In this document: in pieces, positions 16,061-29,966 of the stretch
Layout of the letters: each line of letters starts with the position of its first letter
Numbering within the stretch: the stretch's first letter is position 1
DNA from: Escherichia phage RB69
DNA: 64,000 nucleotides
Reading direction: 5' to 3' (one strand)
Sequence record: NC_004928.1
Position numbers and translations under genes: made by a program
The notes under the pieces: generated by a model
Database searches by the model: none
What the model was told of the DNA's origin: nothing
Seen by the model: only the letters and a program-made list of their open reading frames with translations

Positions 16061-16258
16061 ATGTTTAAACTTCCATCGTTAATCAACGCTATTAAAGGCA
16101 ATAAAAAGAAAACTGCTATCGCTGCAATAGTTGTAGGTGGTATTATTTCATGGAACTTCGGGATTGCACCATTGTTAGTTGCCCATGGTATTATAGTTCC
16201 TTCTGTTCCATTGGATACTGTTGTTGACCTAGCTTTTGCTGTTATAGGGCTTGTTTAA
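16061..16258 (+). CDS. small hydrophobic membrane protein, the only convincing plus-strand gene
   Basis: 65 aa; strong AAGGAG site 7 nt upstream; convergent with gene 61. Confidence 0.45.
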   Translation: MFKLPSLINAIKGNKKKTAIAAIVVGGIISWNFGIAPLLVAHGIIVPSVPLDTVVDLAFAVIGLV

Positions 16259-17277
16259 ATCTTCGAATAACGAGATAATCTCATTTTAGCATGCAACCCA
16301 CTTGAAATATTCTGTTTCATATATTCTAAAATTTCTTGTGGTGTTGCATTTTCTTTCATTACCATATCATTCACATCCTTTGAACTCCATGGAGCTCGGT
16401 CCCAGAACATGACACGTTCGCCTGCATCAACTAATCGCTTCATGCGAGCTATAGTATCCGGATGCCTAGGTTCATTATCCATTACCCATACCCGACGTTC
16501 TTTAAATGGTACCACATCTAAATCTATCGAGCCGCCTGTAATAGCGATTGCATTAGGTATGAATAAACTATCAATAGGGCCTTCCATTACCCAGACGTCT
16601 CCTTCCTTAACACGTTCAACACCATAAATTTTTGTTGCAGACTCAAACGCTTTAATAGTGATATATTTCTGAGGAGCATCTTTACGAAGTGCACGTCCTT
16701 GGAATGACTCGGCCTTCCCGTCTTTATTAAAAATAGGAATCACTAAACGTGGTTCGGGAATCTCTTTCTTATACGTACCAGGTTGAATCTTGTTGACCAA
16801 TTTGGGCCATTCTAATGTGAACCATAATCTGTTCCATGATTCTTTAGGAATACACCGAGACTTAACATATTTCACAATAGGATGCTCTTCAGGCAACTTG
16901 TCCAGACGAGAACAAGACGGCAAAGAATTTATAGTCTTTTTCTCTGGCTCTGGCTTAGCTTCAGGAACCTTTTCAATCTTTGGTTCCATTCTAGCTTTTT
17001 CTTTACGAACTTCCATTAGATATTCGCGATAAAGCTCTTCATCATACTCCTTTAAGTATCCGGAAATTGTATTGTGGTATTGACAGTTATAGCAATGTAC
17101 ATTACCAGGAGTACCGCCATAATACCAACCGCGAGCTTTCATTGCATCTGTCTGGGAGTCGCCACAAACTGGACAACGAAACGTTAATTTAAATGTGCTT
17201 GAATTATTGATTTGTCTAAAACGAGGGAGGTGAGAAAACGCACGATAAGCAAATTCATTATCTATCCATTCAGCCAT
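16255..17277 (-). CDS. 61: DNA primase gp61
   Basis: 340 aa; zinc ribbon CPVCGD...CYNC; matches T4 gp61. Confidence 0.9.
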   Translation of the reverse strand: MAEWIDNEFAYRAFSHLPRFRQINNSSTFKLTFRCPVCGDSQTDAMKARGWYYGGTPGNVHCYNCQYHNTISGYLKEYDEELYREYLMEVRKEKARMEPKIEKVPEAKPEPEKKTINSLPSCSRLDKLPEEHPIVKYVKSRCIPKESWNRLWFTLEWPKLVNKIQPGTYKKEIPEPRLVIPIFNKDGKAESFQGRALRKDAPQKYITIKAFESATKIYGVERVKEGDVWVMEGPIDSLFIPNAIAITGGSIDLDVVPFKERRVWVMDNEPRHPDTIARMKRLVDAGERVMFWDRAPWSSKDVNDMVMKENATPQEILEYMKQNISSGLHAKMRLSRYSKI

Positions 17278-17316
17278 AGTATTCTCCAGAGGCCTTATTA
17301 ATTTAAGGCCATCATA

Positions 17317-17595
17317 TCACAACTTATTAATATTTACTTTAATTCGCTTTCTTTTCTTGGAAGGAATTTGTTCTGGACCTTTATTTACGACTGCACCTGT
17401 AGTTGTTCCTGATGCAATAGCTTGAGGACTGCCGCCTGAATCACCAGCAACCATATCCTCAAATAAAGGGAGTTCTTTAAATATTTCTTTCTGTTGTTCT
17501 TCTGTAATGTTATAGCGTGAAGCTACAGCACTCCAGGCGGACATCATTGAGGCCATTCCATTAAGACCTGGAACAGTGCTCATCATTCGCTTCAT
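17317..17595 (-). CDS. hypothetical protein
   Basis: 92-aa ORF. Confidence 0.4.
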   Translation of the reverse strand: MKRMMSTVPGLNGMASMMSAWSAVASRYNITEEQQKEIFKELPLFEDMVAGDSGGSPQAIASGTTTGAVVNKGPEQIPSKKRKRIKVNINKL

Positions 17596-17810
17596 TGAAC
17601 GAACTGAAGCATGAAAAGGTGTATAAGCCGCTTCTCTTCAGGAGTGGAAGGACGTTTAAGAACACTTCCACGTTCATCGATGATTTTGGCTTCGTATGCT
17701 TTCCATTCGGTAAAAGGTTTTTGCATTAGTCGAATAAACTTATATGCATAAACAGAATCTATTGCAGTGTTAATAATACCCATAGGTACCTCCTGAGTAT
17801 ATTTAATCAA
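17592..17810 (-). CDS. hypothetical protein
   Basis: 72-aa ORF. Confidence 0.4.
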   Translation of the reverse strand: MIKYTQEVPMGIINTAIDSVYAYKFIRLMQKPFTEWKAYEAKIIDERGSVLKRPSTPEEKRLIHLFMLQFVQ

Positions 17811-18000
17811 TTACAAAGATTGCTTTGTCACCATTTATATCTGTGACTTCATATGTGGTGCCTTCATACTGTGGAATATTCCAAATTACACCGTCATTAG
17901 CTTTTACGCTAATATGGCATTGGTGTTTTGAAACAACTTCATAATCTTCAAAACTTGTAAAAACACTAATTTTAGAACCAGTGCAAATTGCAGTAGTCAT
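17803..18000 (-). CDS. hypothetical protein
   Basis: 65-aa ORF. Confidence 0.4.
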   Translation of the reverse strand: MTTAICTGSKISVFTSFEDYEVVSKHQCHISVKANDGVIWNIPQYEGTTYEVTDINGDKAIFVID

Positions 18001-18001
18001 T

Positions 18002-18661
18002 TTAACCTCGATTCATAAATGCATTAAATATTTGGTCATCAACAGAAATTTCTAATTCGACTTCAATTGCTTCAGCCTTTTCTTCAGGTGGTAATTCGTA
18101 TCCACACACTACAATTTTTTCATCGATATCAAAATATACAGAAGCAATACGATTAATGTTATTTTCAGTTAAGTCCAAATCAACATCAACATCTTTTTGG
18201 CTTACACTTAGAGGATAACTAATACGGGTTATTTTATTATCTTTAACAAAGAGTCCACCAACATACTCTGTACTACGTTTGAAGTTTACACGTTTCCGAA
18301 TTGAAAGATATGATGCATCTTTACCGTGAGCTCGGCTCATAGGACATAATGAATAGCTAGAATAAGAGATGTCAAATCCTACACCTTCAATATGAGCCAA
18401 CGTGTCATGATTAAACCAATTATAATCATATGCCAAATCCATTATATTGTAATATGTGAAAGGCACAGGATTAACATCATATGTTGTACCTTTAAAATCT
18501 GCCCAGGCAACGATTTCGTTATCTTTAACAATTACAAAAATTACACCGATATGGTATCCGTTATTATTTTCATTCGGCGTTATATTATAACATTGTGCAT
18601 TAGGAAATTTACCATATTTAAATGGCGCGTTTTTGTGCATGTAATAAATCATATTATTCAC
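18002..18661 (-). CDS. hypothetical protein
   Basis: 219-aa ORF. Confidence 0.5.
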   Translation of the reverse strand: MNNMIYYMHKNAPFKYGKFPNAQCYNITPNENNNGYHIGVIFVIVKDNEIVAWADFKGTTYDVNPVPFTYYNIMDLAYDYNWFNHDTLAHIEGVGFDISYSSYSLCPMSRAHGKDASYLSIRKRVNFKRSTEYVGGLFVKDNKITRISYPLSVSQKDVDVDLDLTENNINRIASVYFDIDEKIVVCGYELPPEEKAEAIEVELEISVDDQIFNAFMNRG

Positions 18662-18947
18662 CTGTGATTTCGGTTATGATATCTTTGTTATCGAAATTAG
18701 GGTCACAATACAAAACATAGTTGTACTGCATGATACCGCCAGACTTAAGTTGTTCAACAACTTTATTAACCATATTAGGACGGTCTCGTTTAGTGATGTT
18801 CATGATATCAGAGAAGATTTGTTGTTCAACATCTTCTTGATTTGCAGTCATTGACCACTCACAGAGGTCTTTATCATAACCTGCCGTAACTGGAGCCGGT
18901 GCACATGATACTGCAAGTAAGATTGCTGCCAATGATAACTTTTTCAT
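18654..18947 (-). CDS. predicted lipoprotein
   Basis: 97 aa; signal peptide ending in lipobox LAVSC. Confidence 0.5.
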   Translation of the reverse strand: MKKLSLAAILLAVSCAPAPVTAGYDKDLCEWSMTANQEDVEQQIFSDIMNITKRDRPNMVNKVVEQLKSGGIMQYNYVLYCDPNFDNKDIITEITGE

Positions 18948-18976
18948 TTTAACTCCTTAGTTGATTTGATAGGACT

Positions 18977-19006
18977 ACTATACTATAGTCCATCTATAAT
19001 GTAAAC
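18977..19006 (-). promoter_or_regulatory. early promoter (GTTTAC, 18 nt, TATAGT), ggactat-type cassette
   Basis: upstream of the AAGGAG site of the lipoprotein gene. Confidence 0.45.
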
Positions 19007-19010
19007 AAGT

Positions 19011-19259
19011 TTATTCTTTTTCGCGAATAATAATTACTTGTTGAGGCTGCTGAGCCGATTTCTTTTCGGCAACGATAGACCAAATTAAAGTTCCAATCCA
19101 ACCAACCATCGTCCAGTTAAAGAGTAAAGATACAAAGAAGATTGCTGTTGTGCTTTTTGTGCCACGAATAAGTGCGATTACCCAAGGCAACATGTAAATG
19201 ATGATTGAACCAATACCTGCGATTAAAACTGCTACTGAACTAGCTACGAATAATTCCAT
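19011..19259 (-). CDS. small integral membrane protein
   Basis: 82 aa; two hydrophobic helices. Confidence 0.5.
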   Translation of the reverse strand: MELFVASSVAVLIAGIGSIIIYMLPWVIALIRGTKSTTAIFFVSLLFNWTMVGWIGTLIWSIVAEKKSAQQPQQVIIIREKE

Positions 19260-19320
19260 GTTAATTTCCTCTTGATTTGTTATGTTTATAGTATCTTGTT
19301 TTAACTTTGGTGTAAACCAA

Positions 19321-19689
19321 TTAATTAAATTTGTTTAAACGTTCAATACACTGGACGTAGTTATTCGCGATTTGTTTCTGGGTAGGCTCTTTACCAGTTG
19401 TTTCAACATAGCGAATGAACGCGATTTCAGTAGCCTGTAAGCAATGTTCTTTAACGCGTTGTTCTTTTGACAATGCTACAGTATCAGAATCACGATAACG
19501 TTGAGCATGGGCATCAGCTTGAATCATTCGATTACCTACAGTAACCGGGTCTTCCACTTCAACTTTAGGTTGGTTGTACTGTTTAACATTCGGATTGTAA
19601 ATCAGTTGGCCAACGTTATTAGGGATAAAGCCATGGGCACCACATCCAGTTAATCCGAATACCATTGCTAAAGCGATTAATTTTTTCAT
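19321..19689 (-). CDS. predicted lipoprotein
   Basis: 122 aa; signal peptide with lipobox LTGC. Confidence 0.5.
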   Translation of the reverse strand: MKKLIALAMVFGLTGCGAHGFIPNNVGQLIYNPNVKQYNQPKVEVEDPVTVGNRMIQADAHAQRYRDSDTVALSKEQRVKEHCLQATEIAFIRYVETTGKEPTQKQIANNYVQCIERLNKFN

Positions 19690-19749
19690 TTCAATTTCCT
19701 CTGTAGTTGATAGAAAGATAGTAACACAGTATGTGGTGCTTGTAAACAG

Positions 19750-19962
19750 CTATTTTAAACTTTTGCGAAATTTGCGTTTTTCTTGACGAATCTGTCGTTT
19801 AGTCGGACGTACAGCAAATTTAACGAAGTCCACTTTGCCGTGTGGAAACTTTTCAGATGCTTCACAGTCCATCATTAGTTCCCATCCTTCCAGAATAAGA
19901 GCTTTCCATTGTGTAGTTGATGCAAATTCGTATGTTGATGGTTTAAACACAGTTGAATACAT
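19750..19962 (-). CDS. small basic-tail protein (C-terminal VRPTKRQIR motif)
   Basis: ORF track 19750..20001; likely start Met14 after GAGGA; C-terminus resembles the two small ORFs near gene 49. Confidence 0.45.
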   Translation of the reverse strand: MYSTVFKPSTYEFASTTQWKALILEGWELMMDCEASEKFPHGKVDFVKFAVRPTKRQIRQEKRKFRKSLK

Positions 19963-19963
19963 A

Positions 19964-20176
19964 TTATCCTCTGAAATCAGCTTCAAAAACTTTCTCGTCA
20001 TTAATAAATGCTTTAACTAATGCATTGTTCACTTCAGCAAGTTGTACCGTAACCCACTCGATTTCTTCGCGATCACCTGATAACATGATATCTTTAGTGA
20101 ACATCTCACCGCTTTTAAACCAACCGATAAAAGTAACTTTAGTTAATTTGCTCATATTTCCTCGCAAAATGCCCAT
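19964..20176 (-). CDS. hypothetical protein
   Basis: 70-aa ORF. Confidence 0.4.
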   Translation of the reverse strand: MGILRGNMSKLTKVTFIGWFKSGEMFTKDIMLSGDREEIEWVTVQLAEVNNALVKAFINDEKVFEADFRG

Positions 20177-20469
20177 TCAGCGTGATAAACTGTAGCACCT
20201 TTAGTATTATTCATTTGAACTACGTCTACCGGAGAAATTACTCGATAGAGACGTGGTTCACCTCCATAAGAGCGTGCTGCTCGTCCTGCATAAATCTTTG
20301 CTAAACCGATATCTTCAGTAAAGAATACACGATCCAAGTTTTTCTTACGTCCAGTTTCAGACAGAACTCCTGTTTCCTCAGGAGGACAAAGCATGTTTTC
20401 GATGTTAGCTGAACTACTTGAACCGTGATAAAAAATCTTAAATTCTGCTTTACAATCGATGGTTTTCAT
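20152..20469 (-). CDS. hypothetical protein
   Basis: 105-aa ORF with its own early promoter. Confidence 0.45.
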   Translation of the reverse strand: MKTIDCKAEFKIFYHGSSSSANIENMLCPPEETGVLSETGRKKNLDRVFFTEDIGLAKIYAGRAARSYGGEPRLYRVISPVDVVQMNNTKGATVYHAEWAFCEEI

Positions 20470-20495
20470 TTTGTTCTCCAGTAGGTGATAGGTCT

Positions 20496-20523
20496 ATAAT
20501 ACACAACTACTGGAGAAGTAAAC
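20496..20523 (-). promoter_or_regulatory. early promoter (GTTTAC, 16 nt, TATTAT); spacer complementary to downstream ribosome-binding site
   Basis: ctccagtag (20476-20484) and ctactggag (20508-20516) form a 9-bp inverted repeat that includes the GGAG site. Confidence 0.5.
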
Positions 20524-20898
20524 TTAAAAACGTAATTTAGATATATCTGCGTTGATTTCGTTTTGGTTTGCGTCGTATGCAATTAAACGAACCGCTTTAG
20601 ATGGGTCATTCAATGCATAGAAATGATGGAACATTGCTCGAACGATATCACCATTTACGAGTTCTACCTGGATAGGAGAACCTTTTTCGAGTTGGAAATG
20701 TTCATAAGCTTTGATGGTTCGCAGATAATCAAGTTTTTGATTTCCGGCTCCAACAATTTGTACGATACGTTTGCCCATGTTTTCCATACGAGATACAATA
20801 GTTTTAGGAGCAAGAATAACGTAGGTTGCCAGCGGAGAAACTACTTCAACAGTTGTGTTTTCGGTGATTGCAGTAAAAATTGCTTGAGACATATTCAT
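20524..20898 (-). CDS. hypothetical protein
   Basis: 124-aa ORF. Confidence 0.5.
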   Translation of the reverse strand: MNMSQAIFTAITENTTVEVVSPLATYVILAPKTIVSRMENMGKRIVQIVGAGNQKLDYLRTIKAYEHFQLEKGSPIQVELVNGDIVRAMFHHFYALNDPSKAVRLIAYDANQNEINADISKLRF

Positions 20899-20927
20899 AA
20901 TGTTTTCCTCTTGGTTGGTGTAAGTAC

Positions 20928-20957
20928 ATCATATCATGTCTAGAGGAAGATGTAAAC
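20928..20957 (-). promoter_or_regulatory. early promoter (GTTTAC, 18 nt, TATGAT)
   Basis: minus strand GTTTACatcttcctctagacatgaTATGAT. Confidence 0.4.
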
Positions 20958-20963
20958 CCCGAA

Positions 20964-20988
20964 AGGAGACCGAAGTCTCCTTTTTATT
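20964..20988 (+). terminator. hairpin aggagac-cgaa-gtctcct with T-tract on the plus strand
   Basis: the U-tract follows the stem only on the plus strand; on the minus strand it is a UUCG hairpin just after the gene 41 stop. Confidence 0.4.
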
Positions 20989-22429
20989 AAAATTTTAACT
21001 CATTGGCTAAGCTATCTAGGTCAGCACGTGTTGCTTTGGCTTTACCTACGCGTTCCGTACGATTCACCTCTGCCTGACGCATCTGAGCACCTGCGTTTTC
21101 ATTTACTGTGTTAGGTGTGTTCATGCCTTCTTGCTCAATCTCAACCCATTTCTGATTGCCTTTACGTACACCCATCAGGAATTTATTCCACTTATTCTTA
21201 TCGCCGTATCGTGATTTGATTTGCTTGATAAGTTGTTGTTCAGCTTGTGCAAGTTCTTCGGTTTCAATTACAGCCAACATGAAATCTGCCGTTGCTGGTA
21301 AACCTGCTGATTCTGCGATATCACTCATGTTCATGTCTGAAGCATCCCATGCTGCACGTCCTACTTGAGCTGCAGTCCATAGAACTGTTTCAGATTCTAC
21401 TGCTAATGCACGAAGTTCTTCTGCGATAGCTTTAACTAATGTGTAGCTATTTTCAGTGTAAACTCTGATACGACAAGACCCACAAATACCTAAGTAATCA
21501 ACCATGATTACAGATGGCACAAAGTTCTTCTTAAGTTTTAACTCATTAAGCAATGCACGGAATGTATTAGCATTAGCTCCACCAGTAGGATACTGTTTAA
21601 CTACTAAACGTCCTAATGTTGTTTTTGAACGCCATTTTTCCATCTTGGCTTTATATTCAGCATAAGATACGTTACCATCATCAATATCATCAAGTGATAC
21701 GTCAAGCATGTTTGCATCTATACGCTTAGCGCAAACTTCTTCAGCCATTTCCATAGAAATATAAAGAACGTTATGACCTGTTTGAAGATAATCTGCAGCA
21801 AGTGAACAAAGGCCTAAAGATTTACCGACGTTAACACCAGCCATTAAAACGTTTAGTGTACCGGTTTCAGCACCACCTTTGGTTATTTTATTCAAAATGT
21901 TTAATTTGAACGGGACCTTACGTGCTTTATTTAGATAAGAAAGCCAGCGTGCTTCGTAGTCTTCCATCCAGTCATGTCCAACATAACTATCGAACGAAAT
22001 TGAAAGTGCTTGACGCATAATATCAGGAATAGCTCCTACGTCAGGCATTTTCTTGTTACGTTGTTCTGGAGGTAGTTCAGCATTAGACTGAATTTCAATG
22101 ATTTTGGACGTAGCATTATACATCGCTTTTTGCTGGACATATTTCTCAGTTTCTTTAACCAACCATTCGTGGTCTTCAGGAGTATCAGCCAATTTTTCAA
22201 TTAGGTCTGAAGTTCCTTTATATTCGGCTTCAGTTAAAGAACTGTTATCTAAAGCCACCTTTAATGCATTGATAGATGGCATTGCATTATATTCGTTAAC
22301 GTGGCTCTTTATAATTTTAAAGACGTTTTTTGCCGGTCCACGCTCAAAGTAATCAGAATCCATATAAGGCCAGACCTTAGAAAAATAAGCCTGGTCATAT
22401 ACTAGATGAGACAAAATAATTTCTACCAC
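20987..22429 (-). CDS. 41: replicative DNA helicase gp41 (DnaB-like)
   Basis: 480 aa; colinear with the T4 gp41 sequence as I recall it. Confidence 0.9.
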   Translation of the reverse strand: MVEIILSHLVYDQAYFSKVWPYMDSDYFERGPAKNVFKIIKSHVNEYNAMPSINALKVALDNSSLTEAEYKGTSDLIEKLADTPEDHEWLVKETEKYVQQKAMYNATSKIIEIQSNAELPPEQRNKKMPDVGAIPDIMRQALSISFDSYVGHDWMEDYEARWLSYLNKARKVPFKLNILNKITKGGAETGTLNVLMAGVNVGKSLGLCSLAADYLQTGHNVLYISMEMAEEVCAKRIDANMLDVSLDDIDDGNVSYAEYKAKMEKWRSKTTLGRLVVKQYPTGGANANTFRALLNELKLKKNFVPSVIMVDYLGICGSCRIRVYTENSYTLVKAIAEELRALAVESETVLWTAAQVGRAAWDASDMNMSDIAESAGLPATADFMLAVIETEELAQAEQQLIKQIKSRYGDKNKWNKFLMGVRKGNQKWVEIEQEGMNTPNTVNENAGAQMRQAEVNRTERVGKAKATRADLDSLANELKF

Positions 22430-22438
22430 GATAACTCC

Positions 22439-22783
22439 TTAAAAGAATTTAAATTTTTTCTTGGCCCGTTCATTAAAAGCTTGTTGTACTTGCATTGTAA
22501 CACATTTTTCAACATGTGGTGCAAGTTCTGCCTTTTCTGTCCTGGTCAAGAACTGCAAAGTCCATTTCGATTTTACCATCAACCCAGTGCTAGTTTTGTA
22601 ATATAGACTTATATGATGGGAACCGTCTTCAAGTGTAATCAGAATCTCTTGAATGACATTTTCCATTGCCGAACGGATAATTTTAAGAGATTCATTAAAC
22701 ACTCGTTCTTTGCGAATGTCTTCCCCTTCCGAAGAAGGGGATTCATCAACGATTTCTAGATTTAAATCATCGAGATTATTCAT
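22439..22783 (-). CDS. 40: gp40-like head vertex assembly chaperone
   Basis: ORF track 22439..22804; start at Met8 gives 114 aa as in T4 gp40 and avoids overlap with uvsX. Confidence 0.5.
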   Translation of the reverse strand: MNNLDDLNLEIVDESPSSEGEDIRKERVFNESLKIIRSAMENVIQEILITLEDGSHHISLYYKTSTGLMVKSKWTLQFLTRTEKAELAPHVEKCVTMQVQQAFNERAKKKFKFF

Positions 22784-23948
22784 CGAAATCTTCCATTTCG
22801 TCAAGGTCGTTTTCTATATCTGCTGCAGACGGAGCATCAGAAGTTTTAACCGGAACTTTAGTTGTTGCTTTGCAATTAATAAGGTCGTTAACAGCGTCAT
22901 CAACTTCTTTAATAGAAGAGATAGCACCTAGTTTATATTTAGTTTCAATTGCATCTCGGAAAGGTTTGTGTTTAAACAACGGTCCCCAGAATTCTACACA
23001 ATCAGTAGCTTTAGCACGCCACGATTTCTCTTCACGAATCATTTCACCTGTTTCTTCGTCAAGGAATTCACGAGCATACCACCCGGCTTTAGGCTTAACC
23101 ACAAAACCGATTTCAGTTGCCATTTCTAACAAGCCACTGAATGGGTCGATACCACCATCAAAATTAACCGTGATTGGGAAAGTAGATTTTTCTTTAACGG
23201 TGCGAGATTTTTCTGCTTTCAACGTGAAGTCATAACCGGTCAATTCTGTACCTTCTTTAACCTGACGTTTAGAGATAAAAAATACCGTGTTGGCAGAATA
23301 AAGAATACCTGTACCACCACCCATAATCTCTTTAGGATACAATCCGCCAATTTCCATTGCTGTATGGTTGATTGCAACACATGGAATATCTTTAATAGTC
23401 AGATAAGGAGTCACAATGCGGAACAGAGATTTAAGTGCCTTAGCACGAGACATATCACCTACAACTTTCTCGTTCAATGCATCTTCAGTTTCTTTCTTAG
23501 ACGCAGTATTACCAATCGAGTCAATAAAGATAATAACTTTATCACCGCGTTCAATAGCGTCAAGCTGATTAGTCATATCAACTTTAAGTTGTTCGACAGA
23601 TTGAATCGGAGTATGAACTACACGGTCTAAATCAACACCCATTGAACGAAAATAAGATTCTGAAGCACCGAATTCTGAGTCATAAAACAAACAGATTGCA
23701 TCTTTATATTTCTTCATATACGCTGCAACCATAGTTAGTCCAAACAACGTTTTAAAGTGTTTAGAAGGAGCAGCAAAAATAGTTAAGCCTGATTGCAACC
23801 CTGCATTCAGTGCACCACCTAATGCAATATTCAACATCGGAATACGAGTAGGGACTTCATCGCGATTATTAAACAGCTTAGACTTAGTCAAGTCTGCAGT
23901 CATTTTAGAAGTAGAAGCTTTAATCAGACGAGATTTTAAATCAGACAT
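22776..23948 (-). CDS. uvsX: UvsX recombinase (RecA-like)
   Basis: 390 aa; matches T4 UvsX throughout. Confidence 0.9.
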   Translation of the reverse strand: MSDLKSRLIKASTSKMTADLTKSKLFNNRDEVPTRIPMLNIALGGALNAGLQSGLTIFAAPSKHFKTLFGLTMVAAYMKKYKDAICLFYDSEFGASESYFRSMGVDLDRVVHTPIQSVEQLKVDMTNQLDAIERGDKVIIFIDSIGNTASKKETEDALNEKVVGDMSRAKALKSLFRIVTPYLTIKDIPCVAINHTAMEIGGLYPKEIMGGGTGILYSANTVFFISKRQVKEGTELTGYDFTLKAEKSRTVKEKSTFPITVNFDGGIDPFSGLLEMATEIGFVVKPKAGWYAREFLDEETGEMIREEKSWRAKATDCVEFWGPLFKHKPFRDAIETKYKLGAISSIKEVDDAVNDLINCKATTKVPVKTSDAPSAADIENDLDEMEDFDE

Positions 23949-24046: not shown

Positions 24047-24595
24047 TTAACGAGCCCATTTGATGATTTCTGTAATCAAATCATTACGTTCGCTTGCATT
24101 AAATCCTATAACTTTGTTAGCACCATCATGATTAAGTAATTGATACGTTTGGATTTCGTTATGAATTGCAAACTCTTCAAAATGTGAAATGACTGTATTA
24201 AAACCGAATGAAGACAAAGTAATAAGGTCGTCTTCAAAACTTTCAGTCATTTCGTTACGTGTTAAAATAATTGTGAACACATCATGGTTTTGGCAAAGAC
24301 GAACATAATCCTGTTCATAAACGTCAAGAACCGAGTCCGCATCTTGTCGAATACGTCCATAAACCCAGTTACTAATATATCCACGATCTAACAGATAAAT
24401 CTTAGTAGGGTCTAAATAATTCAACATCGTTTCGAAACAGCCAACTTCATTTCGAGACTTAACATCAAAACGTCCATCAACTGTTCGTTTAGGGAAATCA
24501 ATCTTTACATATCTTTCACTAATTTCCATTATGTCATTAATGAAAGTTGTTTTACCAGCATTATCCGGGCCATCTACTAAAATAATTTTAGCCAT
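24047..24595 (-). CDS. P-loop NTPase, small kinase-like protein
   Basis: 182 aa; Walker A GPDNAGKTT at the N-terminus; sits where T4 has beta-glucosyltransferase. Confidence 0.5.
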   Translation of the reverse strand: MAKIILVDGPDNAGKTTFINDIMEISERYVKIDFPKRTVDGRFDVKSRNEVGCFETMLNYLDPTKIYLLDRGYISNWVYGRIRQDADSVLDVYEQDYVRLCQNHDVFTIILTRNEMTESFEDDLITLSSFGFNTVISHFEEFAIHNEIQTYQLLNHDGANKVIGFNASERNDLITEIIKWAR

Positions 24596-24596
24596 T

Positions 24597-24947
24597 TTAT
24601 TCCTCGATTACGACATCTTCATATTTAGGTATATTATACGGCGAAGAAATTAAAGCGTTAAAGTAGATGAACTCACCAAGACCTGGATGGAATACTTCTT
24701 CAGGATTTTCGAAATATTGAATCTTCGGACGTCCTTTAAGAATTTGATAGTACTCAGTTTTAGTTGGTTTAAAAATTCGAATCAGCGCTTCTTCAGGATA
24801 CTTATTTCTGTCGAAGCTATTATTTGGATCGGTTATATAAAGCGGTTGGCCTAATTGAATTGCACATTCAACCACTTGTTCAAAACGATAGCACGGGTCA
24901 CTAATTCGAAATGGATGAAAAATACCATCTAGATGAATAGGAGCCAA
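24597..24947 (-). CDS. hypothetical protein
   Basis: 116-aa ORF. Confidence 0.45.
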   Translation of the reverse strand: MAPIHLDGIFHPFRISDPCYRFEQVVECAIQLGQPLYITDPNNSFDRNKYPEEALIRIFKPTKTEYYQILKGRPKIQYFENPEEVFHPGLGEFIYFNALISSPYNIPKYEDVVIEE

Positions 24948-24948
24948 A

Positions 24949-25497
24949 TCACACTACAAGACGCTGCATGATGGAAGGACGTATAACTTTCTGCGTTACG
25001 ATAATCTTATTACCATCTGCACCTGCGTTAACCAGCACTTCTTTTTGACGTTCATTCAACACAGTAGTTTGAAGTGAACGATTAACCGACAACATATCGG
25101 TTTTTAAGAATTCGTCAATATAAAAACGTGGTTTATTAGGGTCTGCAGTGATATTGAAAATGAATTCCACATCAAAAGCGCCGTCATATCCAGTGATATC
25201 TGTGATTAGAAAATCACAATCATAATAAGCAATTAATGAATCAACCACAAATTCATTTTCAGACCAGAAATATTTACGAGTGTTATACGCGTTATCTTTA
25301 TACCATAATGGAACAAACTTAAATTCCGGGAAAAGACGTTCGCATTCTTTAATATCAGATGCATTACGTGGATATGTAATCACATCACCTGGATTAGCAC
25401 GGTGCAAATGAAGTTGGAAGTTGCCATCCTTAAGGATAGAATACTGTCCAGTTTCATAAGACCGCATACTCAAGATAGGTACGCGGAAAATAGCCAT
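24949..25497 (-). CDS. hypothetical protein
   Basis: 182-aa ORF. Confidence 0.45.
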   Translation of the reverse strand: MAIFRVPILSMRSYETGQYSILKDGNFQLHLHRANPGDVITYPRNASDIKECERLFPEFKFVPLWYKDNAYNTRKYFWSENEFVVDSLIAYYDCDFLITDITGYDGAFDVEFIFNITADPNKPRFYIDEFLKTDMLSVNRSLQTTVLNERQKEVLVNAGADGNKIIVTQKVIRPSIMQRLVV

Positions 25498-26213
25498 TAG
25501 TCAAGGAATCCTTTAACATAATCAAAATCACGTTCAAACACATGGGCACTTACCATGGTATGAGTATAATCACCAACTTCTACACCACATTCGTTAGCGA
25601 TATAATGAAGTAATTTTCCTTGGAGATAAAAATCCAACTGCATAACAACAGCACAGTTCTGGGAACGCATATGGCAGTGGGTATAAAGCTTACCATCACG
25701 AATATAATAAGTCACTGAGTCAGTACATGGATATTCAAGCGTTTCGTCCGAATCAAGCAAAGCCTGATCAGAACTTTCTAGAATTTGGAACACAACTCTT
25801 CGGGAGTTAGGCTTCTCTTTAAGTTCTTTTAGAAGAGCTGGTAATTGGGCCGCAATGCGAGGACCGTAGAAAGTGTTGAAGTTTGCAGGCAAAGCGTCTG
25901 ATTTAGGTTTAGAAATAAATTTAGCAACGTTAGGATATGCCTTAAACGCTTCTTCTGCATCAGTACCACCAGAAATCATAAACTTCCAGAAGTCTTCGGC
26001 ATATTCATAAGAGATGCGGTTAATACGTGGGTCGGTCATTTTGAATGATGATGGAGTGTCAACAACTACTGTCATAGACCCAATTTCATTACAACGTCCA
26101 ATACGAGAATCAGTTACGAATTCCGGGTTTTCTAAAATTTCACGATTGACTGCTTTAAATGCGGTTTGAAAATCTGCGGCTTTGATATATTTCATTGTGT
26201 TATGTTTTCCCAT
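25497..26213 (-). CDS. 42: deoxypyrimidine-nucleotide hydroxymethylase (gp42-like, thymidylate-synthase fold), divergent
   Basis: 238 aa; catalytic region EYPCTDSVTYYIRDGKLYTHCHMRSQN aligns with T4 gp42 FMCTNTVQYLIRD...MRSND. Confidence 0.6.
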   Translation of the reverse strand: MGKHNTMKYIKAADFQTAFKAVNREILENPEFVTDSRIGRCNEIGSMTVVVDTPSSFKMTDPRINRISYEYAEDFWKFMISGGTDAEEAFKAYPNVAKFISKPKSDALPANFNTFYGPRIAAQLPALLKELKEKPNSRRVVFQILESSDQALLDSDETLEYPCTDSVTYYIRDGKLYTHCHMRSQNCAVVMQLDFYLQGKLLHYIANECGVEVGDYTHTMVSAHVFERDFDYVKGFLD

Positions 26214-26255
26214 GTTTACCTCAATACAATTTATTATATACTCAATTCATAAAGC

Positions 26256-26495
26256 TTATTTGAATTTCTTAGCGATGTTGATATAACGTAAAGCTTCAGC
26301 ATCGATATTTCCAAGAACACTATGAAGAAATGCATCAGCGTAGTATTCCAATTGAACAGGTTCTTTAATCACTTTAGCCGCTTTAGTTTCAAACAGGCCC
26401 ATCAGGGCCTTTTTAAGAATTTGTTCGTTGCTGTTAATTTTCATAGTCAAAATCTCTTCATTAAGTTGGTGGTTAAAAGTTTTTCTAGAAATCAT
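26256..26495 (-). CDS. hypothetical protein
   Basis: 79-aa ORF. Confidence 0.4.
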   Translation of the reverse strand: MISRKTFNHQLNEEILTMKINSNEQILKKALMGLFETKAAKVIKEPVQLEYYADAFLHSVLGNIDAEALRYINIAKKFK

Positions 26496-27661
26496 TCTGG
26501 GTACCTCAAAGCGTCATCAGAGTTAGTTACATCAATAATAGATATAGAATTTTCTGATAACCCATTTTTAGATAACTGACGTTTATAATATCTTTCACAA
26601 TATGTACACGTCGTCCCGCAGATTTCATTAGCACAATCGAAATCTGGATGTCTGAACCACCTTTTTTCTAAAAAGCCATCTAACAAAGAGGTTTCAATAT
26701 TTACTGTATGTGAAAACTCAGTTTCGTTTTCAAGAGTGAAAATAGTCTCTAAAGGCTTCCACAGTTCTAACAAATTACCTTCAAACTTTTCAGAAGCGTA
26801 TGCTTCAAGAACTTTCAAAATGTAGTCTGTGCTACCTGTACGTCCTGAAACTTTGAATTGAGTGATACCAATATCATTATAAAGTTTCAAATCTTGAGGA
26901 CGAACAAAACGAGTTCTCAACCAGTTAAATGGGTCTGTATCACGAGCTTTAATACAGTGCTGCATAGGATATCCGTTTAAGGATTTAGCATCATCAGCTG
27001 TAACATCAGTACTATGGAAAATATAGCAAGAGTCACGATAGCTACAATGTGTTGTATACCCTTTACCAGCATTAGAACAGAACTCATTTACAAGAACTTC
27101 AAATATTATATTGTTCTTATTGCAAAACTCTGCTGCACGCTTCAGGAAAGAAACTGAACGGTTTTTATGAATTCCACAGCAGACCTTTTTGATATTATAT
27201 TGGTCATGCAAGTATTTGATTTGAGTTACAGCATCGACATGTAGAATTGTTGAAACTTCAATCTCAATGTCTTTATTGACTTCACGAACAATTTCCATAA
27301 CAACAGGGTTAGCGATAGTAATACGCCATACGCCTATTGACCAAAGATACTGAACATAATCCTGAATAGCTTTCTTCTTCCACTCAACTAGTTCTCTTTT
27401 TGAACCAGGATTTATCGTGTTGAGTGTATAGTTAAAGCAAATACCTAATTCGTTACAACGTTTAACGTAATCTTCTAACATCTTTTTGTCAACGTCAGGA
27501 AGCCTAAAATCAGGTCTGGCTGCTACAAAAGCCATTTCTCTTGTAGAGCCGTATACTTCGTTTATCAAGCTATTAGGATAAGTTTTATTGAGCTCTACGA
27601 TTTTATCAAGAAGAGCTAAATCAAAATTCGTTCCGATTTTAAAAGTATTCATTTTTTGCAT
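26492..27661 (-). CDS. U32-family-like protein with C-terminal Cys cluster
   Basis: 389 aa; N-terminal pattern EVYGS...FVAARPDF...LNT and cysteine-rich segments; weak, motif-level only. Confidence 0.4.
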   Translation of the reverse strand: MQKMNTFKIGTNFDLALLDKIVELNKTYPNSLINEVYGSTREMAFVAARPDFRLPDVDKKMLEDYVKRCNELGICFNYTLNTINPGSKRELVEWKKKAIQDYVQYLWSIGVWRITIANPVVMEIVREVNKDIEIEVSTILHVDAVTQIKYLHDQYNIKKVCCGIHKNRSVSFLKRAAEFCNKNNIIFEVLVNEFCSNAGKGYTTHCSYRDSCYIFHSTDVTADDAKSLNGYPMQHCIKARDTDPFNWLRTRFVRPQDLKLYNDIGITQFKVSGRTGSTDYILKVLEAYASEKFEGNLLELWKPLETIFTLENETEFSHTVNIETSLLDGFLEKRWFRHPDFDCANEICGTTCTYCERYYKRQLSKNGLSENSISIIDVTNSDDALRYPE

Positions 27662-27707
27662 CTCGCGTTAATTGATGCGATGGTTTTTGCAGGTCTTACT
27701 TAAATTA

Positions 27708-28109
27708 TTATAGATTCGGTTTATATGATTTAAATGTTTCGAATTCGCCTTTATTCATAAGAGCTTTGAATTCGTCAGGACGCATAGCTTTGTCGTCGAT
27801 AATCCAATCATATACTGGTTTATGTGTTAGCAAATTATGGTACTTCAAGCCAATGTTTGCCAAGTTCTGAATCAGACTTGGGAGAATGTCAATTGCTATA
27901 CGTCCAGGACCTACTGACTTCATACCGCGAGCAGTGTAAAGCGTTATGGTATGCCCTGCATCATACAGAGCATTAATGGCAGACACCATTTCGACGTCTG
28001 GTTTGAAGTTCACGTAATCACGATTGTTATTCCACTCTGTTATACAATCATCGACATCAAAACAAAGATTAAGCATGTTTTCTACATGGTGCATTAGATT
28101 CGTTCCCAT
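27708..28109 (-). CDS. HAD-superfamily phosphatase (small, KdsC-like)
   Basis: 133 aa; HAD motif I FDVDDCIT; true start may be Met12 near 28076. Confidence 0.55.
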   Translation of the reverse strand: MGTNLMHHVENMLNLCFDVDDCITEWNNNRDYVNFKPDVEMVSAINALYDAGHTITLYTARGMKSVGPGRIAIDILPSLIQNLANIGLKYHNLLTHKPVYDWIIDDKAMRPDEFKALMNKGEFETFKSYKPNL

Positions 28110-29134
28110 TGATGAGTGATATCGCCACCGATTGGACGATAAGAAACACCAGTTTCTTTATCGGTTAGTACCCATTTACCAGGATTTTTTGTAATCAGAG
28201 TAGCCGTTACAGGTTCTGCTACGTCATAACTAATAGAGCCGTCTTGAAGTACACGGCCCATGTTACGTAATTGCTTAGTCAGAAGTTCCATACCTTTATA
28301 ATACGCGGCTACCGCTTTAAGTGGATTATTCTTGAAATAACCACCTAATGCAATCCAGATAATTGCTACAGCCAAATGATGATACTCGTTAAACGAACTC
28401 ATCTTTCCATATTTGTAAACTAATGGATTGATGTTAATAGTCACATTACAAGTTGTTTCGTCAATAGTAAACTGTCCCCAGGTCGGATTAGCGTTGAATT
28501 CATCATAACCTGAAACGGCATAAAGCACTTTAGCTTCATCGTACAATTTTGGTCCGTAAATCTTGGTTTCGCCAAAATATCCACGAGGGTCGATAAACTT
28601 GACTTCGCCGTTATCAGTAATCATAGTATTACTGAAGTTCGGGTCACCGTGAATAACAGAGTACTGTCCCTGAGAACGGTTATGATAACGAATAAGGTGT
28701 TCTAAAGCTTGTTTCAGCATTGGCTTCAGACGTCCAATCTTAGTGTAGTTCACATGTGTGATTTTACCAAATGAATCAATCAATGGTTGAATGCTTTCAC
28801 AACGATCAATAACTTTCGTATAGAATTCTTTAGTGAAATCACGACGAACAGTTTCAGGACTTACAAAATAAGTGTCTGTGCTGAATTTCAGTGCATCTAA
28901 AATTGCATCAACAATTTGTGGACGAGCAAGACTTGATTTGGATTTAATATATTCAAATGCCGGCTTACCTTTAATGCGTTCCATTTCAAAGTTATTTTCA
29001 TTAACAGAAACTAACTGAGGAACTGAATCTGATTTCACTTTAAGATACCATGAAATCTCATCTTTCTGAAGAGCTCGACCATGTTCGGTTAATGCGAATT
29101 TAGTTACAGTTTCTTCACCAATTTCGAACTGCAT
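28094..29134 (-). CDS. sugar kinase of the aminoglycoside-phosphotransferase / choline-kinase fold
   Basis: catalytic loop HGDPNFSN; ORF track begins at a GTG (29191); ATG at Met20 used here; start uncertain. Confidence 0.55.
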   Translation of the reverse strand: MQFEIGEETVTKFALTEHGRALQKDEISWYLKVKSDSVPQLVSVNENNFEMERIKGKPAFEYIKSKSSLARPQIVDAILDALKFSTDTYFVSPETVRRDFTKEFYTKVIDRCESIQPLIDSFGKITHVNYTKIGRLKPMLKQALEHLIRYHNRSQGQYSVIHGDPNFSNTMITDNGEVKFIDPRGYFGETKIYGPKLYDEAKVLYAVSGYDEFNANPTWGQFTIDETTCNVTININPLVYKYGKMSSFNEYHHLAVAIIWIALGGYFKNNPLKAVAAYYKGMELLTKQLRNMGRVLQDGSISYDVAEPVTATLITKNPGKWVLTDKETGVSYRPIGGDITHQWERI

Positions 29135-29780
29135 TAAAACTACGATTAAGTTCACGAACTTCATGAGCTTTTTCAAGTTTAGGCATATCACCTAAATCAA
29201 TTAGATTCATAAGCTCTGATTTATTGAATGCACTGCCGTAAAGGAATTCTACGAAATCACGTCCTTTGCAGTATTCGTGAATTTCCTCATCAGTAGAACC
29301 CATGTAGAATTCCCAGTCTTTGAACTGATAAATTCCTACAACGTTACCGCCTGTTGAACCTACGTTAGTGATATTTTCACCATCGAAATTATATCGACAT
29401 TCATCACCCTTAACATAGATTGCGTTAACATTCCAAGACCATGAACCAAAATCAGGAATAATATCACACCAGTTAACAATTACGTTATGGCCATCTAAAT
29501 CTTTGTATAATTTAGCAAGAGCATAAGCAGAACCATACGCTTCATCAACTGTACGAATAGTCACATTGAACCCTTCTTGCTCACAATAAGCTCGAACAGT
29601 TTCAGCAAATTTTGAATGAACTACTACAATAATTTCATCTGCGCCAAGGTCAGAATAAATTGTATACAAATTGCTCAGAATAGTGTCTTGTTTATAGTTA
29701 ACAAGCACCTTAGGAATATGATGCGTTATTGGATACAAACGAGTTGCTAATCCAGCACCAAGAATAACAGCTTTTTTCAT
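29115..29780 (-). CDS. sugar-1-phosphate nucleotidyltransferase
   Basis: N-terminal AVILGAGLATRL motif; start at Met6 after GAGGA. Confidence 0.65.
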   Translation of the reverse strand: MKKAVILGAGLATRLYPITHHIPKVLVNYKQDTILSNLYTIYSDLGADEIIVVVHSKFAETVRAYCEQEGFNVTIRTVDEAYGSAYALAKLYKDLDGHNVIVNWCDIIPDFGSWSWNVNAIYVKGDECRYNFDGENITNVGSTGGNVVGIYQFKDWEFYMGSTDEEIHEYCKGRDFVEFLYGSAFNKSELMNLIDLGDMPKLEKAHEVRELNRSFNAVRNW

Positions 29781-29822
29781 GTTGAAGATCCTCATTGGTA
29801 AGTAGGTGTATTGTACACTATT

Positions 29823-29966
29823 CTAGTTAAAGCATTCATACTTTGCTTGTAGTCCAATCATAATCCATCCAATTACAAGTGTTGGAATCATTACTGGAGC
29901 CGTTAAGCTCCAGTAGATAGTCATGACAAGCATCAATAGTAAAAGTCCTATTGTTATTGCTTTCAT
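29823..29966 (-). CDS. small hydrophobic membrane protein
   Basis: 47 aa translated by hand (MKAITIGLLLLMLVMTIYWSL...); ATG overlaps the upstream TGA as ATGA. Confidence 0.35.
   Translation of the reverse strand: MKAITIGLLLLMLVMTIYWSLTAPVMIPTLVIGWIMIGLQAKYECFN

What the first reader, a model, noticed from the sequence alone, without database searches (positions are those of the whole stretch)
18654..19689. Two lipoproteins and a small membrane protein in the early region between 61 and 41
T4 has little between genes 61 and 41. This phage has about 3.7 kb of extra genes there, including two ORFs with signal peptides and lipoboxes (LAVSC and LTGC) and a two-helix membrane protein. Early-expressed lipoproteins and inner-membrane proteins are the usual form of superinfection-exclusion and receptor-masking functions. 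These are candidates for that role.
Basis: inference. Interest (0 to 1): 0.45.

Follow-up and report, generated by a model that had tools for sequence, protein, structure and literature searches.

The report
Known T-even exclusion genes sp, imm, imm.1
The three small genes are this RB69-like phage's copies of the T4 genes sp, imm and imm.1; sp and imm are the well-studied genes that stop a second phage from entering an infected cell, so the finding is real but already known.

Summary
The window is a Mosigvirus (RB69/JS09-like T-even phage). The three minus-strand ORFs at 18654-19689 are real genes. Each has its own T4-type early promoter motif and a Shine-Dalgarno sequence.

- 18654-18947 is sp (Spackle, gp61.3), 67% identical to T4. 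It is the periplasmic inhibitor of the incoming tail lysozyme gp5.
- 19011-19259 is imm, 64% identical to T4. It is the inner-membrane protein that binds the tape measure protein and blocks genome entry.
- 19321-19689 is a 32%-identical homologue of T4 imm.1 (DUF5481). It is a predicted lipoprotein of unknown function.

The only lineage-specific feature is that the imm.1-imm pair, which lies between genes 43 and 42 in T4, sits next to sp here.

Calling Sp a lipoprotein conflicts with N-terminal sequencing of T4 Sp, which shows cleavage after residue 22. However, the signal-peptide Ser14-Cys15 is invariant in the family.

An imm.1-like lipoprotein gene accompanies imm in at least five Tevenvirinae genera, which suggests an untested partnership.

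Novelty: already known. Interest: low.

The parts
19718..19747 (-). T4 early-promoter-like motif (GTTTACA-N17-TACTAT) upstream of imm.1
   Evidence: The motif occurs 19 times on the minus strand and once on the plus strand of the window; shuffles give 2.4. T4 has the same motif in front of its imm.1.
19321..19689 (-). imm.1 homologue (DUF5481), 122 aa. Predicted lipoprotein: signal peptide plus lipobox LTGC with Cys16 and Gly at +2. A disordered tether is followed by a helical C-terminal domain with conserved Cys83 and Cys114. Function unknown.
   Evidence: Pfam PF17578 at 3.8e-9, 37.3 bits against a cut-off of 27. phrog_1754 at 2.5e-29. 32% identity to T4 imm.1, E 1e-18. Lipobox patterns. AF2 model with pLDDT 62, helices 75-120 at about 90 and residues 1-44 below 50.
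19288..19317 (-). Early-promoter-like motif (GTTTACA-N17-TACTAT) upstream of imm
   Evidence: T4 lacks this motif in front of imm, which there lies 11 nt after imm.1.
19011..19259 (-). imm, the immunity-to-superinfection inner-membrane protein, 82 aa
   Evidence: Pfam PF14373 at 1.8e-15. phrog_1039 at 1.2e-30. 64% identity to T4 Imm, E 4e-37. Two hydrophobic stretches. Residues equivalent to T4 R33 and W50 are conserved as R32 and W49. Single copy in the window.
18977..19006 (-). Early-promoter-like motif (GTTTACA-N17-TATAGT) upstream of sp
   Evidence: The same motif lies directly before sp in T4, EcS1 and two metagenomic T4-like contigs.
18654..18947 (-). sp (Spackle, gp61.3/rIV), 97 aa. Secreted periplasmic inhibitor of the gp5 tail lysozyme. 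Signal peptide 1-22 (VTA|GYD) contains a conserved lipobox-like Ser14-Cys15.
   Evidence: Pfam PF25676 at 1.5e-42. PDB 6x6o at 9.7e-40 and 7cn6 at 7.7e-34. 67% identity to T4. Cys29, Cys81, Ser32-Ala35, Gln37 and Asn76 are conserved. Same syntenic position between 41 and 61 as in T4.

Best explanation
The three ORFs are the immediate-early envelope-protection and superinfection-exclusion genes of a Mosigvirus (RB69-like T-even phage). They are orthologues of T4 sp, imm and imm.1, each transcribed on the minus strand from its own early promoter.

Sp is exported by a Sec signal peptide. It folds into a small disulfide-containing helical bundle in the periplasm and binds the lysozyme domain of gp5 on the tail tip of a later-arriving phage. 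This prevents cell-wall digestion, lysis from without and tube penetration.

Imm sits in the inner membrane. It binds the tape measure protein (gp29) of the incoming phage, so no channel forms and the DNA is not translocated.

Imm.1 is a predicted lipoprotein, probably sorted to the outer membrane because it has no Asp at +2. It has a flexible tether and a disulfide-stapled helical hairpin. By inference only, it assists Imm or envelope protection, because it travels with imm across genera.

Shown here: identity, anatomy, synteny and promoter motifs. Taken from T4 experiments: the mechanisms of Sp and Imm. Inferred: the role of imm.1.
For: Identity of the phage and genes. The region is 98.8% identical to Mosigvirus mar005P1 records, which annotate sp, imm and dmd there. 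Pfam, PHROGs and PDB hits are far above cut-off. Identities to T4 are 67%, 64% and 32%.

Functional residues are kept. Sp retains Cys29/Cys81, Ser32-Ala35, Gln37 and Asn76, which contact gp5. Imm retains R32 and W49, equivalent to T4 R33 and W50; the R33A and W50A mutants of T4 Imm lose exclusion.

T4 experiments. Sp loses its first 22 residues, is released from the periplasm, forms a 1:1 complex with gp5 lysozyme and inhibits it (PMC7650644; PMC7677548). Imm co-purifies with gp29 and excludes T4 when expressed from a plasmid (10.64898/2026.03.06.709160). imm and sp mutants have additive defects (PMC6832632).

Early expression. The promoter motif lies in each roughly 60-bp spacer and is strongly strand-biased in the window.

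The imm/imm.1 link.
- In T4 the two genes are 11 nt apart behind one promoter.
- They moved together in Mosigvirus.
- An imm-adjacent lipoprotein exists in Gaprivervirus, Dhakavirus, Jiaodavirus and Gelderlandvirus, on either side of imm.
- Mature-sequence homology to imm.1 is supported for the first three of these genera: hhalign probability 92%, and blastp E 3.5e-8 to 3e-5.
Against: Nothing contradicts the identity of sp and imm. No function was tested for this phage's alleles. The targets gp5 and gp29 were not identified in the window, so co-variation could not be checked.

For imm.1:
- Imm alone on a plasmid already excludes T4, so imm.1 is not required.
- One homologue (P0002) has Phe in place of the lipobox Cys.
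- The family is tiny and fast-evolving, with 8 representatives among 1.84 billion proteins.
- There is no fold or family lead.
- Adjacency within one subfamily is partly inherited synteny.
Confidence: 0.9

Rival explanations
1. A lineage-specific insertion of two lipoproteins and a membrane protein acts by masking receptors at the outer membrane, as the T5 Llp and T1/phi80 Cor lipoproteins do.
For: Both outer ORFs match a PROSITE-type lipoprotein rule and are the only such ORFs in 64 kb. Neither has Asp at +2, so outer-membrane sorting would be expected. All three are expressed early.
Against: sp is at its ancestral position in T4, EcS1 and other T4-like phages, so it is not an insertion. The mechanisms of Sp and Imm are known and act after adsorption. 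None of the three ORFs hit anything in the PADLOC or NCBIfam libraries, and their only Pfam hits are the T4 families, so no Llp or Cor family match turned up. T4-infected cells still adsorb secondary phage (PMC6832632).
Confidence: 0.05
2. Sp is natively a lipoprotein, or is made in two forms. Lgt and LspA would process it at the invariant Ser14-Cys15, giving a membrane-tethered inhibitor with an 8-residue linker. The soluble Gly23 form seen on overexpression would come from signal peptidase I cleavage at the downstream AXA site.
For: Ser14, Cys15, Pro19 and Ala22 are the only invariant positions in residues 4-22 across 19 homologues down to 38% identity, and there are no indels between Cys15 and Asp25. 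Their codons vary synonymously, so the constraint is on the protein. T4 (LASC) and most homologues ([VL][AS]SC) fit even the strict lipobox. The published N-terminus comes only from overexpressed protein released by freeze-thaw, a procedure that would not recover a lipidated form. No paper found in the searches discusses Cys15.
Against: The N-terminal sequence of T4 gp61.3 starts at residue 23, and the soluble form was a major released species. Residues 23-97 alone bind and inhibit gp5. The window's own variant, AVSC, fails the strict lipobox.
Confidence: 0.3
3. imm.1 has nothing to do with exclusion. It is a dispensable early envelope lipoprotein with another role, such as host-range or fitness under particular conditions, or no role. 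It merely shares a transcription unit with imm.
For: Imm alone suffices for exclusion from a plasmid. imm.1 is only 32% identical to the T4 protein, while its neighbours are 64-67% identical. Some homologues lack the lipid anchor. No similarity to any characterised protein was found. The literature searches here found no paper on it.
Against: The imm plus lipoprotein pairing persists through at least two rearrangements: an order flip in Gaprivervirus and Dhakavirus, and a joint move next to sp in Mosigvirus. In T4 the two genes are co-transcribed.
Confidence: 0.5

Closest known systems
Bacteriophage T4 Spackle (gp61.3, sp/rIV; Pfam PF25676; PDB 6X6O, 6XC1, 7CN6)
   Same: Same length (97 aa) and 67% identity. 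Same signal peptide layout, disulfide pair and gp5-contact residues. Same position between genes 41 and 61, behind an early promoter.
   Different: The lipobox-like motif is AVSC rather than LASC. The upstream neighbour is imm rather than 61.4. Inhibition of this phage's own gp5 has not been tested.
Bacteriophage T4 Imm (Pfam PF14373 Imm_superinfect)
   Same: 64% identity over the full length. Two hydrophobic stretches. R33 and W50 equivalents and the C-terminal QVIIIREKE are conserved.
   Different: Located next to sp instead of between genes 43 and 42. It has its own promoter motif, whereas T4 imm follows imm.1 by 11 nt without one.
T4 imm.1 (Pfam DUF5481, phrog_1754), uncharacterised
   Same: Signal peptide plus canonical lipobox. 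The YNPNVK.Y and YR.SD motifs and two C-terminal Cys are shared. It lies immediately upstream of imm.
   Different: Only 32% identity. It lacks the post-Cys motif QG.VV..S.VGK that is present in T4 and in the imm-adjacent lipoproteins of other genera.
Receptor-blocking phage lipoproteins (T5 Llp, T1/phi80 Cor)
   Same: Small lipoproteins made by the phage that act in the cell envelope to exclude other phages. This is a resemblance in kind only, and applies to imm.1.
   Different: No Llp or Cor family match appeared in the Pfam, NCBIfam or PADLOC scans. There is no evidence that adsorption is blocked. T-even exclusion acts after adsorption.
HK97 gp15 and other inner-membrane exclusion proteins that target the tape measure protein
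   Same: Works like Imm. The T4 preprint explicitly compares this mechanism with Imm.
   Different: Family membership was not tested here, and no sequence relation is claimed.

Membership tests
T4_Spackle (PF25676) | Profile match above the curated cut-off over the full length | tested here: met
   144.6 bits against a cut-off of 27, covering residues 1-96 of 96. PDB 6x6o at E 9.7e-40.
T4_Spackle (PF25676) | Sec signal peptide with an AXA-type cleavage site before G/N-[YL]-D-K | tested here: met
   MKK plus a hydrophobic stretch, then P-V-T-A|GYDK. Pro19 and Ala22 are invariant in the family. This is pattern inspection only; no SignalP run was possible.
T4_Spackle (PF25676) | Cys29-Cys81 pair and gp5-contact residues (Ser32-Ala35, Gln37, Asn76, C-terminal helix) | tested here: met
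   All are conserved in the window protein. The residue list is from PMC7677548.
T4_Spackle (PF25676) | Binds and inhibits the gp5 tail lysozyme | not testable with these tools
   Needs biochemistry with the cognate gp5.
Imm_superinfect (PF14373) / T4 Imm | Profile match above the cut-off and full-length similarity to T4 Imm | tested here: met
   56.9 bits against a cut-off of 27.9. 64% identity, E 4e-37.
Imm_superinfect (PF14373) / T4 Imm | Small integral membrane protein with hydrophobic helices, and functional residues R33 and W50 | tested here: met
   Kyte-Doolittle stretches at residues 1-34 and 37-62. R32 and W49 are conserved.
Imm_superinfect (PF14373) / T4 Imm | Binds the tape measure protein and blocks genome translocation | not testable with these tools
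   Shown only for T4 (bioRxiv 10.64898/2026.03.06.709160).
DUF5481 / T4 imm.1 | Profile match above the cut-off | tested here: met
   37.3 bits against a cut-off of 27. phrog_1754 at 2.5e-29. tblastn and BLASTP to T4 imm.1 at E 1e-18.
DUF5481 / T4 imm.1 | Gene adjacent to imm | tested here: met
   It lies 61 bp upstream of imm on the same strand, the same order as in T4.
Bacterial lipoprotein (signal peptidase II substrate), for imm.1 | n-region Lys/Arg, short h-region, lipobox [LVI][ASTVI][GAS]C with Cys at positions 15-35 | tested here: met
   MKKLIALAMVFGLTGC passes the strict, PROSITE-type and G+LPP patterns. The lipobox is present in 5 of 6 full-length relatives.
Bacterial lipoprotein (signal peptidase II substrate), for Sp | Lipobox pattern | tested here: inconclusive
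   The window's AVSC passes the PROSITE-type rule but fails the strict pattern. T4 and most homologues pass both. Ser14-Cys15 is invariant.
Bacterial lipoprotein (signal peptidase II substrate), for Sp | Mature N-terminus is the acylated Cys | not testable with these tools
   The published N-terminal sequencing of overexpressed, periplasm-released T4 gp61.3 starts at residue 23 (PMC7650644). This argues against lipidation but does not examine the membrane-bound fraction.
Receptor-masking lipoproteins (Llp, Cor) | Sequence or family similarity | tested here: not met
   No hit in NCBIfam or PADLOC, and no Pfam hit other than the T4 families. No fold match.

The most novel reading that the evidence does not exclude
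T-even exclusion may have an unrecognised lipid-anchored layer. (a) imm.1 and its relatives may be a third, membrane-tethered component that works with Imm; these lipoprotein genes stay next to imm in at least five Tevenvirinae genera despite rearrangements. (b) Spackle itself may be lipid-anchored, or made in both anchored and soluble forms, through its invariant Ser14-Cys15. That would place the gp5 inhibitor at the membrane where the tail tip emerges. Neither idea appears in the literature searched.
Probability: 0.3. Interest if true: 0.45.

Novelty: already known. Interest (0 to 1): 0.15.

Why it matters
As filed, it matters little. sp and imm are among the oldest known phage exclusion genes, their structures and targets are published, and public Mosigvirus records already annotate these ORFs as such.

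The value of the check is corrective. The 41-61 interval is not empty in T4. Sp should not be called a lipoprotein without experiment. The RefSeq name 'iduronate sulfatase' for imm.1 found no support here.

Two small, testable leads remain:
- A conserved imm plus lipoprotein gene pair.
- An invariant lipobox-like Cys in the Spackle signal peptide.

Either could refine the picture of how T-even phages seal an infected cell. Because Sp and Imm act on gp5 and gp29 of the incoming phage, these alleles may also influence which related phages this one excludes, which is relevant to cocktail design.

Tried and rejected
- imm.1 homologue searches. The word-indexed search found only 3 proteins. The exhaustive profile search found 8 representatives, all phage-type. 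There is therefore no bacterial or functional lead.
- AF2 model of imm.1. Overall confidence is low (pLDDT 62), and only the C-terminal helical hairpin is confident. Foldseek against the PDB gave no hit with E below 2.9. Foldseek against BFVD returned only imm.1 itself and the T4-type imm.1.
- Other libraries. PDB sequence searches with the imm.1 profile and with Imm found nothing. NCBIfam and PADLOC found nothing for any of the three.
- hhalign with the window protein as master lost the shared N-terminal motif and gave no match. It was repeated with P0023 as master.
- RNA folding of the three spacers. No structure was significantly more stable than the shuffled controls; the best z-score was -1.76, for a small hairpin in the imm-sp spacer. 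The only terminator-like site in 17200-21100 lies inside the 105-aa ORF.
- Literature. Searches for 'imm.1' returned only noise or nothing. 'DUF5481' returned no paper. The T4 genome review PMC150520 is not held. RB69 under accession NC_004928 is not in the phage collection.
- Rejected idea: a second imm copy at the T4 position. tblastn finds single copies only.
- Rejected idea: the Ser14-Cys15 conservation reflects a DNA-level constraint. Synonymous codon variation at those sites argues against it.
Full report
**What the window is.**
The stretch 17300-21000 is 98.8% identical over its full length to Escherichia virus vB_Eco_mar005P1. It is 98.2-98.7% identical to the other listed top hits among the 154 records in the 95-99% band, including JS09, HX01 and moha, whose records are classified as Mosigvirus (the RB69-like T-even phages). 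All genes in this part of the window are on the minus strand, in this order: uvsX (22776-23948), 40, 41 (20987-22429), ten small ORFs, then primase 61 (16255-17277).

**The observation.**
Each begins at the first start codon after a stop.
- Each is preceded, in a spacer of about 60 bp, by GTTTACA-N17-TA(C/T)(T/A)(A/G)T and a GAGG/AGGAG ribosome site.
- That promoter motif occurs 19 times on the minus strand and once on the plus strand of the window. Shuffled sequence gives 2.4 in total. The three genes therefore look like separately promoted early genes.
- The two outer ORFs start MKK, then a hydrophobic stretch, then Cys (LAVSC with Cys15; LTGC with Cys16). They are the only two ORFs of at least 60 aa in the 64 kb that satisfy a PROSITE PS51257-type lipoprotein rule; shuffles give 0.23.
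- The middle ORF has two hydrophobic stretches.

So the sequence features are real and not chance.

**The premise is wrong.**
T4 does not have 'little' between 41 and 61. It has dmd, 61.4, sp, 61.2 and 61.1 there, in 1648 bp. The window's interval is 3709 bp in total. It holds homologues of all five in the same order:
- Dmd, PF17587, at 19964-20176.
- A 61.4-like DUF7279 protein at 19750-20001.
- sp.
- 61.2, which is AdfA, the anti-DarT factor, at 18002-18661.
- A 61.1-like gene.

Added to these are imm.1 and imm, two unknown ORFs (124 aa and 105 aa) and a 65-aa ORF.

**Identity of the three ORFs.**

*ORF 18654-18947 is sp (Spackle, gp61.3).*
- Pfam T4_Spackle gives 1.5e-42 over the whole profile, and phrog_1586 'spackle periplasmic' gives 4.4e-42.
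- It matches the solved T4 structures 6X6O and 7CN6 at E 1e-39 and 8e-34, with 67% identity to T4.
- Cys29 and Cys81 are conserved, as are the residues reported to contact gp5: Ser32-Ala35, Gln37 and Asn76.

*ORF 19011-19259 is imm.*
- Pfam Imm_superinfect gives 1.8e-15 and phrog_1039 gives 1.2e-30.
- It is 64% identical to T4 Imm over the full length.

*ORF 19321-19689 is a homologue of T4 imm.1.*
- Pfam DUF5481 gives 3.8e-9, above the cut-off, and phrog_1754 (unknown function) gives 2.5e-29.
- It is 32% identical to T4 imm.1, E 1e-18.

Public records of close relatives already annotate the first two as spackle and immunity to superinfection.

**How Sp and Imm work, taken from T4 experiments.**

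Sp:
- It is exported. When overexpressed it is released from the periplasm, and N-terminal sequencing shows that the first 22 residues are removed (PMC7650644).
- This explains resistance to lysis from without and part of superinfection exclusion.

Imm:
- It is a small inner-membrane protein that blocks genome translocation.
- A 2026 preprint shows that it co-purifies with a fragment of the tape measure protein gp29, and that R33A and W50A weaken exclusion (10.64898/2026.03.06.709160).
- Both residues are conserved in the window protein as R32 and W49.
- imm and sp mutations are additive (PMC6832632).

Both proteins act after adsorption, so receptor masking is not the mechanism.

**Is Sp a lipoprotein?**
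The experimental N-terminus of T4 Sp at Gly23 argues for signal peptidase I cleavage at the AXA site. That site is P-V-T-A|G in the window.

- In 19 homologues down to 38% identity, the only invariant positions within residues 4-22 are Ser14, Cys15, Pro19 and Ala22.
- There are no indels between Cys15 and Asp25.
- Codons at these sites vary synonymously, so the constraint is on the protein.
- T4 (LASC) and most homologues fit even the strict lipobox. The window's AVSC fits only the looser PROSITE-type rule.

The published evidence comes from overexpressed protein released by freeze-thaw, which would not recover a lipidated species. No paper found in the searches mentions Cys15. I therefore keep 'Sp is partly or natively lipid-anchored' as a live minority hypothesis, at about 0.3. 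No signal-peptide predictor was available here.

**imm.1.**
This is the only uncharacterised member.
- *Sequence features.* It has a canonical lipoprotein signal (MKKLIALAMVFGLTGC, with Gly at +2) and two conserved C-terminal Cys at positions 83 and 114.
- *Model.* The AF2 model has a disordered residue 17-47 segment and a confident helical hairpin at 75-120.
- *Family size.* The family is tiny: 8 representatives at E up to 0.001 among 1.84 billion proteins.
- *No similarity elsewhere.* There is no fold, PDB, NCBIfam or PADLOC similarity. The literature searches here found no paper on it.
- *Exception.* One 46%-identical homologue has Phe in place of the lipobox Cys, followed by an AHA|S site.

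The informative evidence for imm.1 is its gene context.
- In T4, imm.1 and imm are 11 nt apart behind a single early-promoter motif, between genes 43 and 42.
- In the window the pair has moved together, to lie next to sp, and is single-copy.
- In Jiaodavirus a lipoprotein gene lies between 43 and imm.
- In Gaprivervirus (VR20, UPEC01) and Dhakavirus (Bp7) a lipoprotein gene lies just downstream of imm.
- In a Gelderlandvirus a lipoprotein gene again lies between 43 and imm.
- With signal peptides removed, the imm.1 group and these lipoproteins align with hhalign probability 92% (E about 6e-7). The match is driven by a shared post-Cys motif, C..QG.VV.AS.VGK, and the two C-terminal Cys line up.
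- Mature P0023 hits VR20, Bp7 and Jiaodavirus at blastp E 3.5e-8, 8e-7 and 3e-5. The Gelderlandvirus protein resembles the others only in architecture.

This pairing through at least two rearrangements suggests a functional link with Imm. Against that, Imm alone excludes T4 from a plasmid, so any role for imm.1 is accessory and untested.

**What is lineage-specific.**
sp lies between 41 and 61 in T4, in EcS1 and in two metagenomic T4-like contigs. In the other Tevenvirinae genera examined, imm follows gene 43, either directly or after an imm.1-like lipoprotein gene. Among the T4-like genomes examined, only the Mosigvirus group has imm.1-imm next to sp. That arrangement gives a contiguous imm.1-imm-sp block flanked by the counter-defence genes dmd and adfA.

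The T4 position of imm is occupied here by other genes: a divergent thymidylate-synthase homologue, and U32-, nucleotidyl-transferase- and SIS-domain genes. These correspond to the RB69 arabinosyl-5-hydroxycytosine pathway described in PMC6024577 and PMC13326640.

**Verdict.**
Novelty is 'already known' and interest is low. Two modest leads deserve a bench test: the conserved imm plus lipoprotein pair, and the invariant lipobox-like Cys of Spackle.

Noticed in passing
window 17317-17810 (deletion at about 17633/17634): The 61.1-like gene is split into two ORFs (17592-17810 and 17317-17595) by a 1-nt deletion in an A-run, relative to phages moha and HX01, which have one intact 468-nt CDS. This is either a sequencing error or a real frameshift or pseudogene.
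   Followed up: partly
window 24047-30598: Between uvsX and DNA polymerase 43, T4 has segA, beta-gt, 42, imm and imm.1. This phage instead has a divergent thymidylate-synthase homologue (25497-26213, 25% identical to T4 gp42), a U32-peptidase-like protein, a nucleotidyl-transferase and a SIS-domain protein. This is most likely the RB69-type arabosyl-5-hydroxycytosine DNA modification cluster, i.e. the arabinosyl-5-hydroxycytosine pathway.
   Followed up: partly
window 18002-18661 and 19964-20176: The exclusion genes are flanked by known counter-defence genes: 61.2/AdfA (anti-DarT factor A, Pfam 4.8e-120) and Dmd (antitoxin-like discriminator of mRNA degradation). The 41-61 interval is therefore an early island of exclusion and anti-defence genes.
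   Followed up: no
window 20152-20469 and 20524-20898: These are two early ORFs (105 aa and 124 aa). The T4 41-61 interval annotates only dmd, 61.4, sp, 61.2 and 61.1, so they have no counterpart there. They match only PHROGs families of unknown function. RefSeq calls the 105-aa protein 'ADP-ribosyl transferase', but Pfam gives no hit.
   Followed up: no
L013 (Escherichia phage TanjaMuster_Bas81) 1190-1710: A 47-kb phage (tail morphotype not checked here) carries an Imm homologue as an opposite-strand insert between the major tail protein and tape measure genes. It is preceded by a 97-aa secreted (non-lipoprotein) ORF. This is a suggestive placement, given that Imm targets the tape measure protein.
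   Followed up: no
window 19259-19320; T4 locus L003 9626-9636: The window's imm cannot be extended upstream, because its start is the first start codon after a stop. The 94-residue upstream-start form of T4 Imm used for cryo-EM in the 2026 preprint is therefore not conserved in this lineage.
   Followed up: no
L004 4001-4324 (phage EcS1); proteins P0018, P0019, P0027: Several database Sp proteins of 107-108 aa carry an N-terminal extension. In EcS1 the called start overlaps the early-promoter motif, so the true start there is probably the internal MK(K/R), giving 97 aa. The promoter overlap was checked only for EcS1.
   Followed up: partly
window 16061-16258 (+): A 65-aa hydrophobic ORF lies on the plus strand between primase 61 and the dCTPase gene, inside an otherwise minus-strand early region. 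Relatives annotate it as hypothetical.
   Followed up: no
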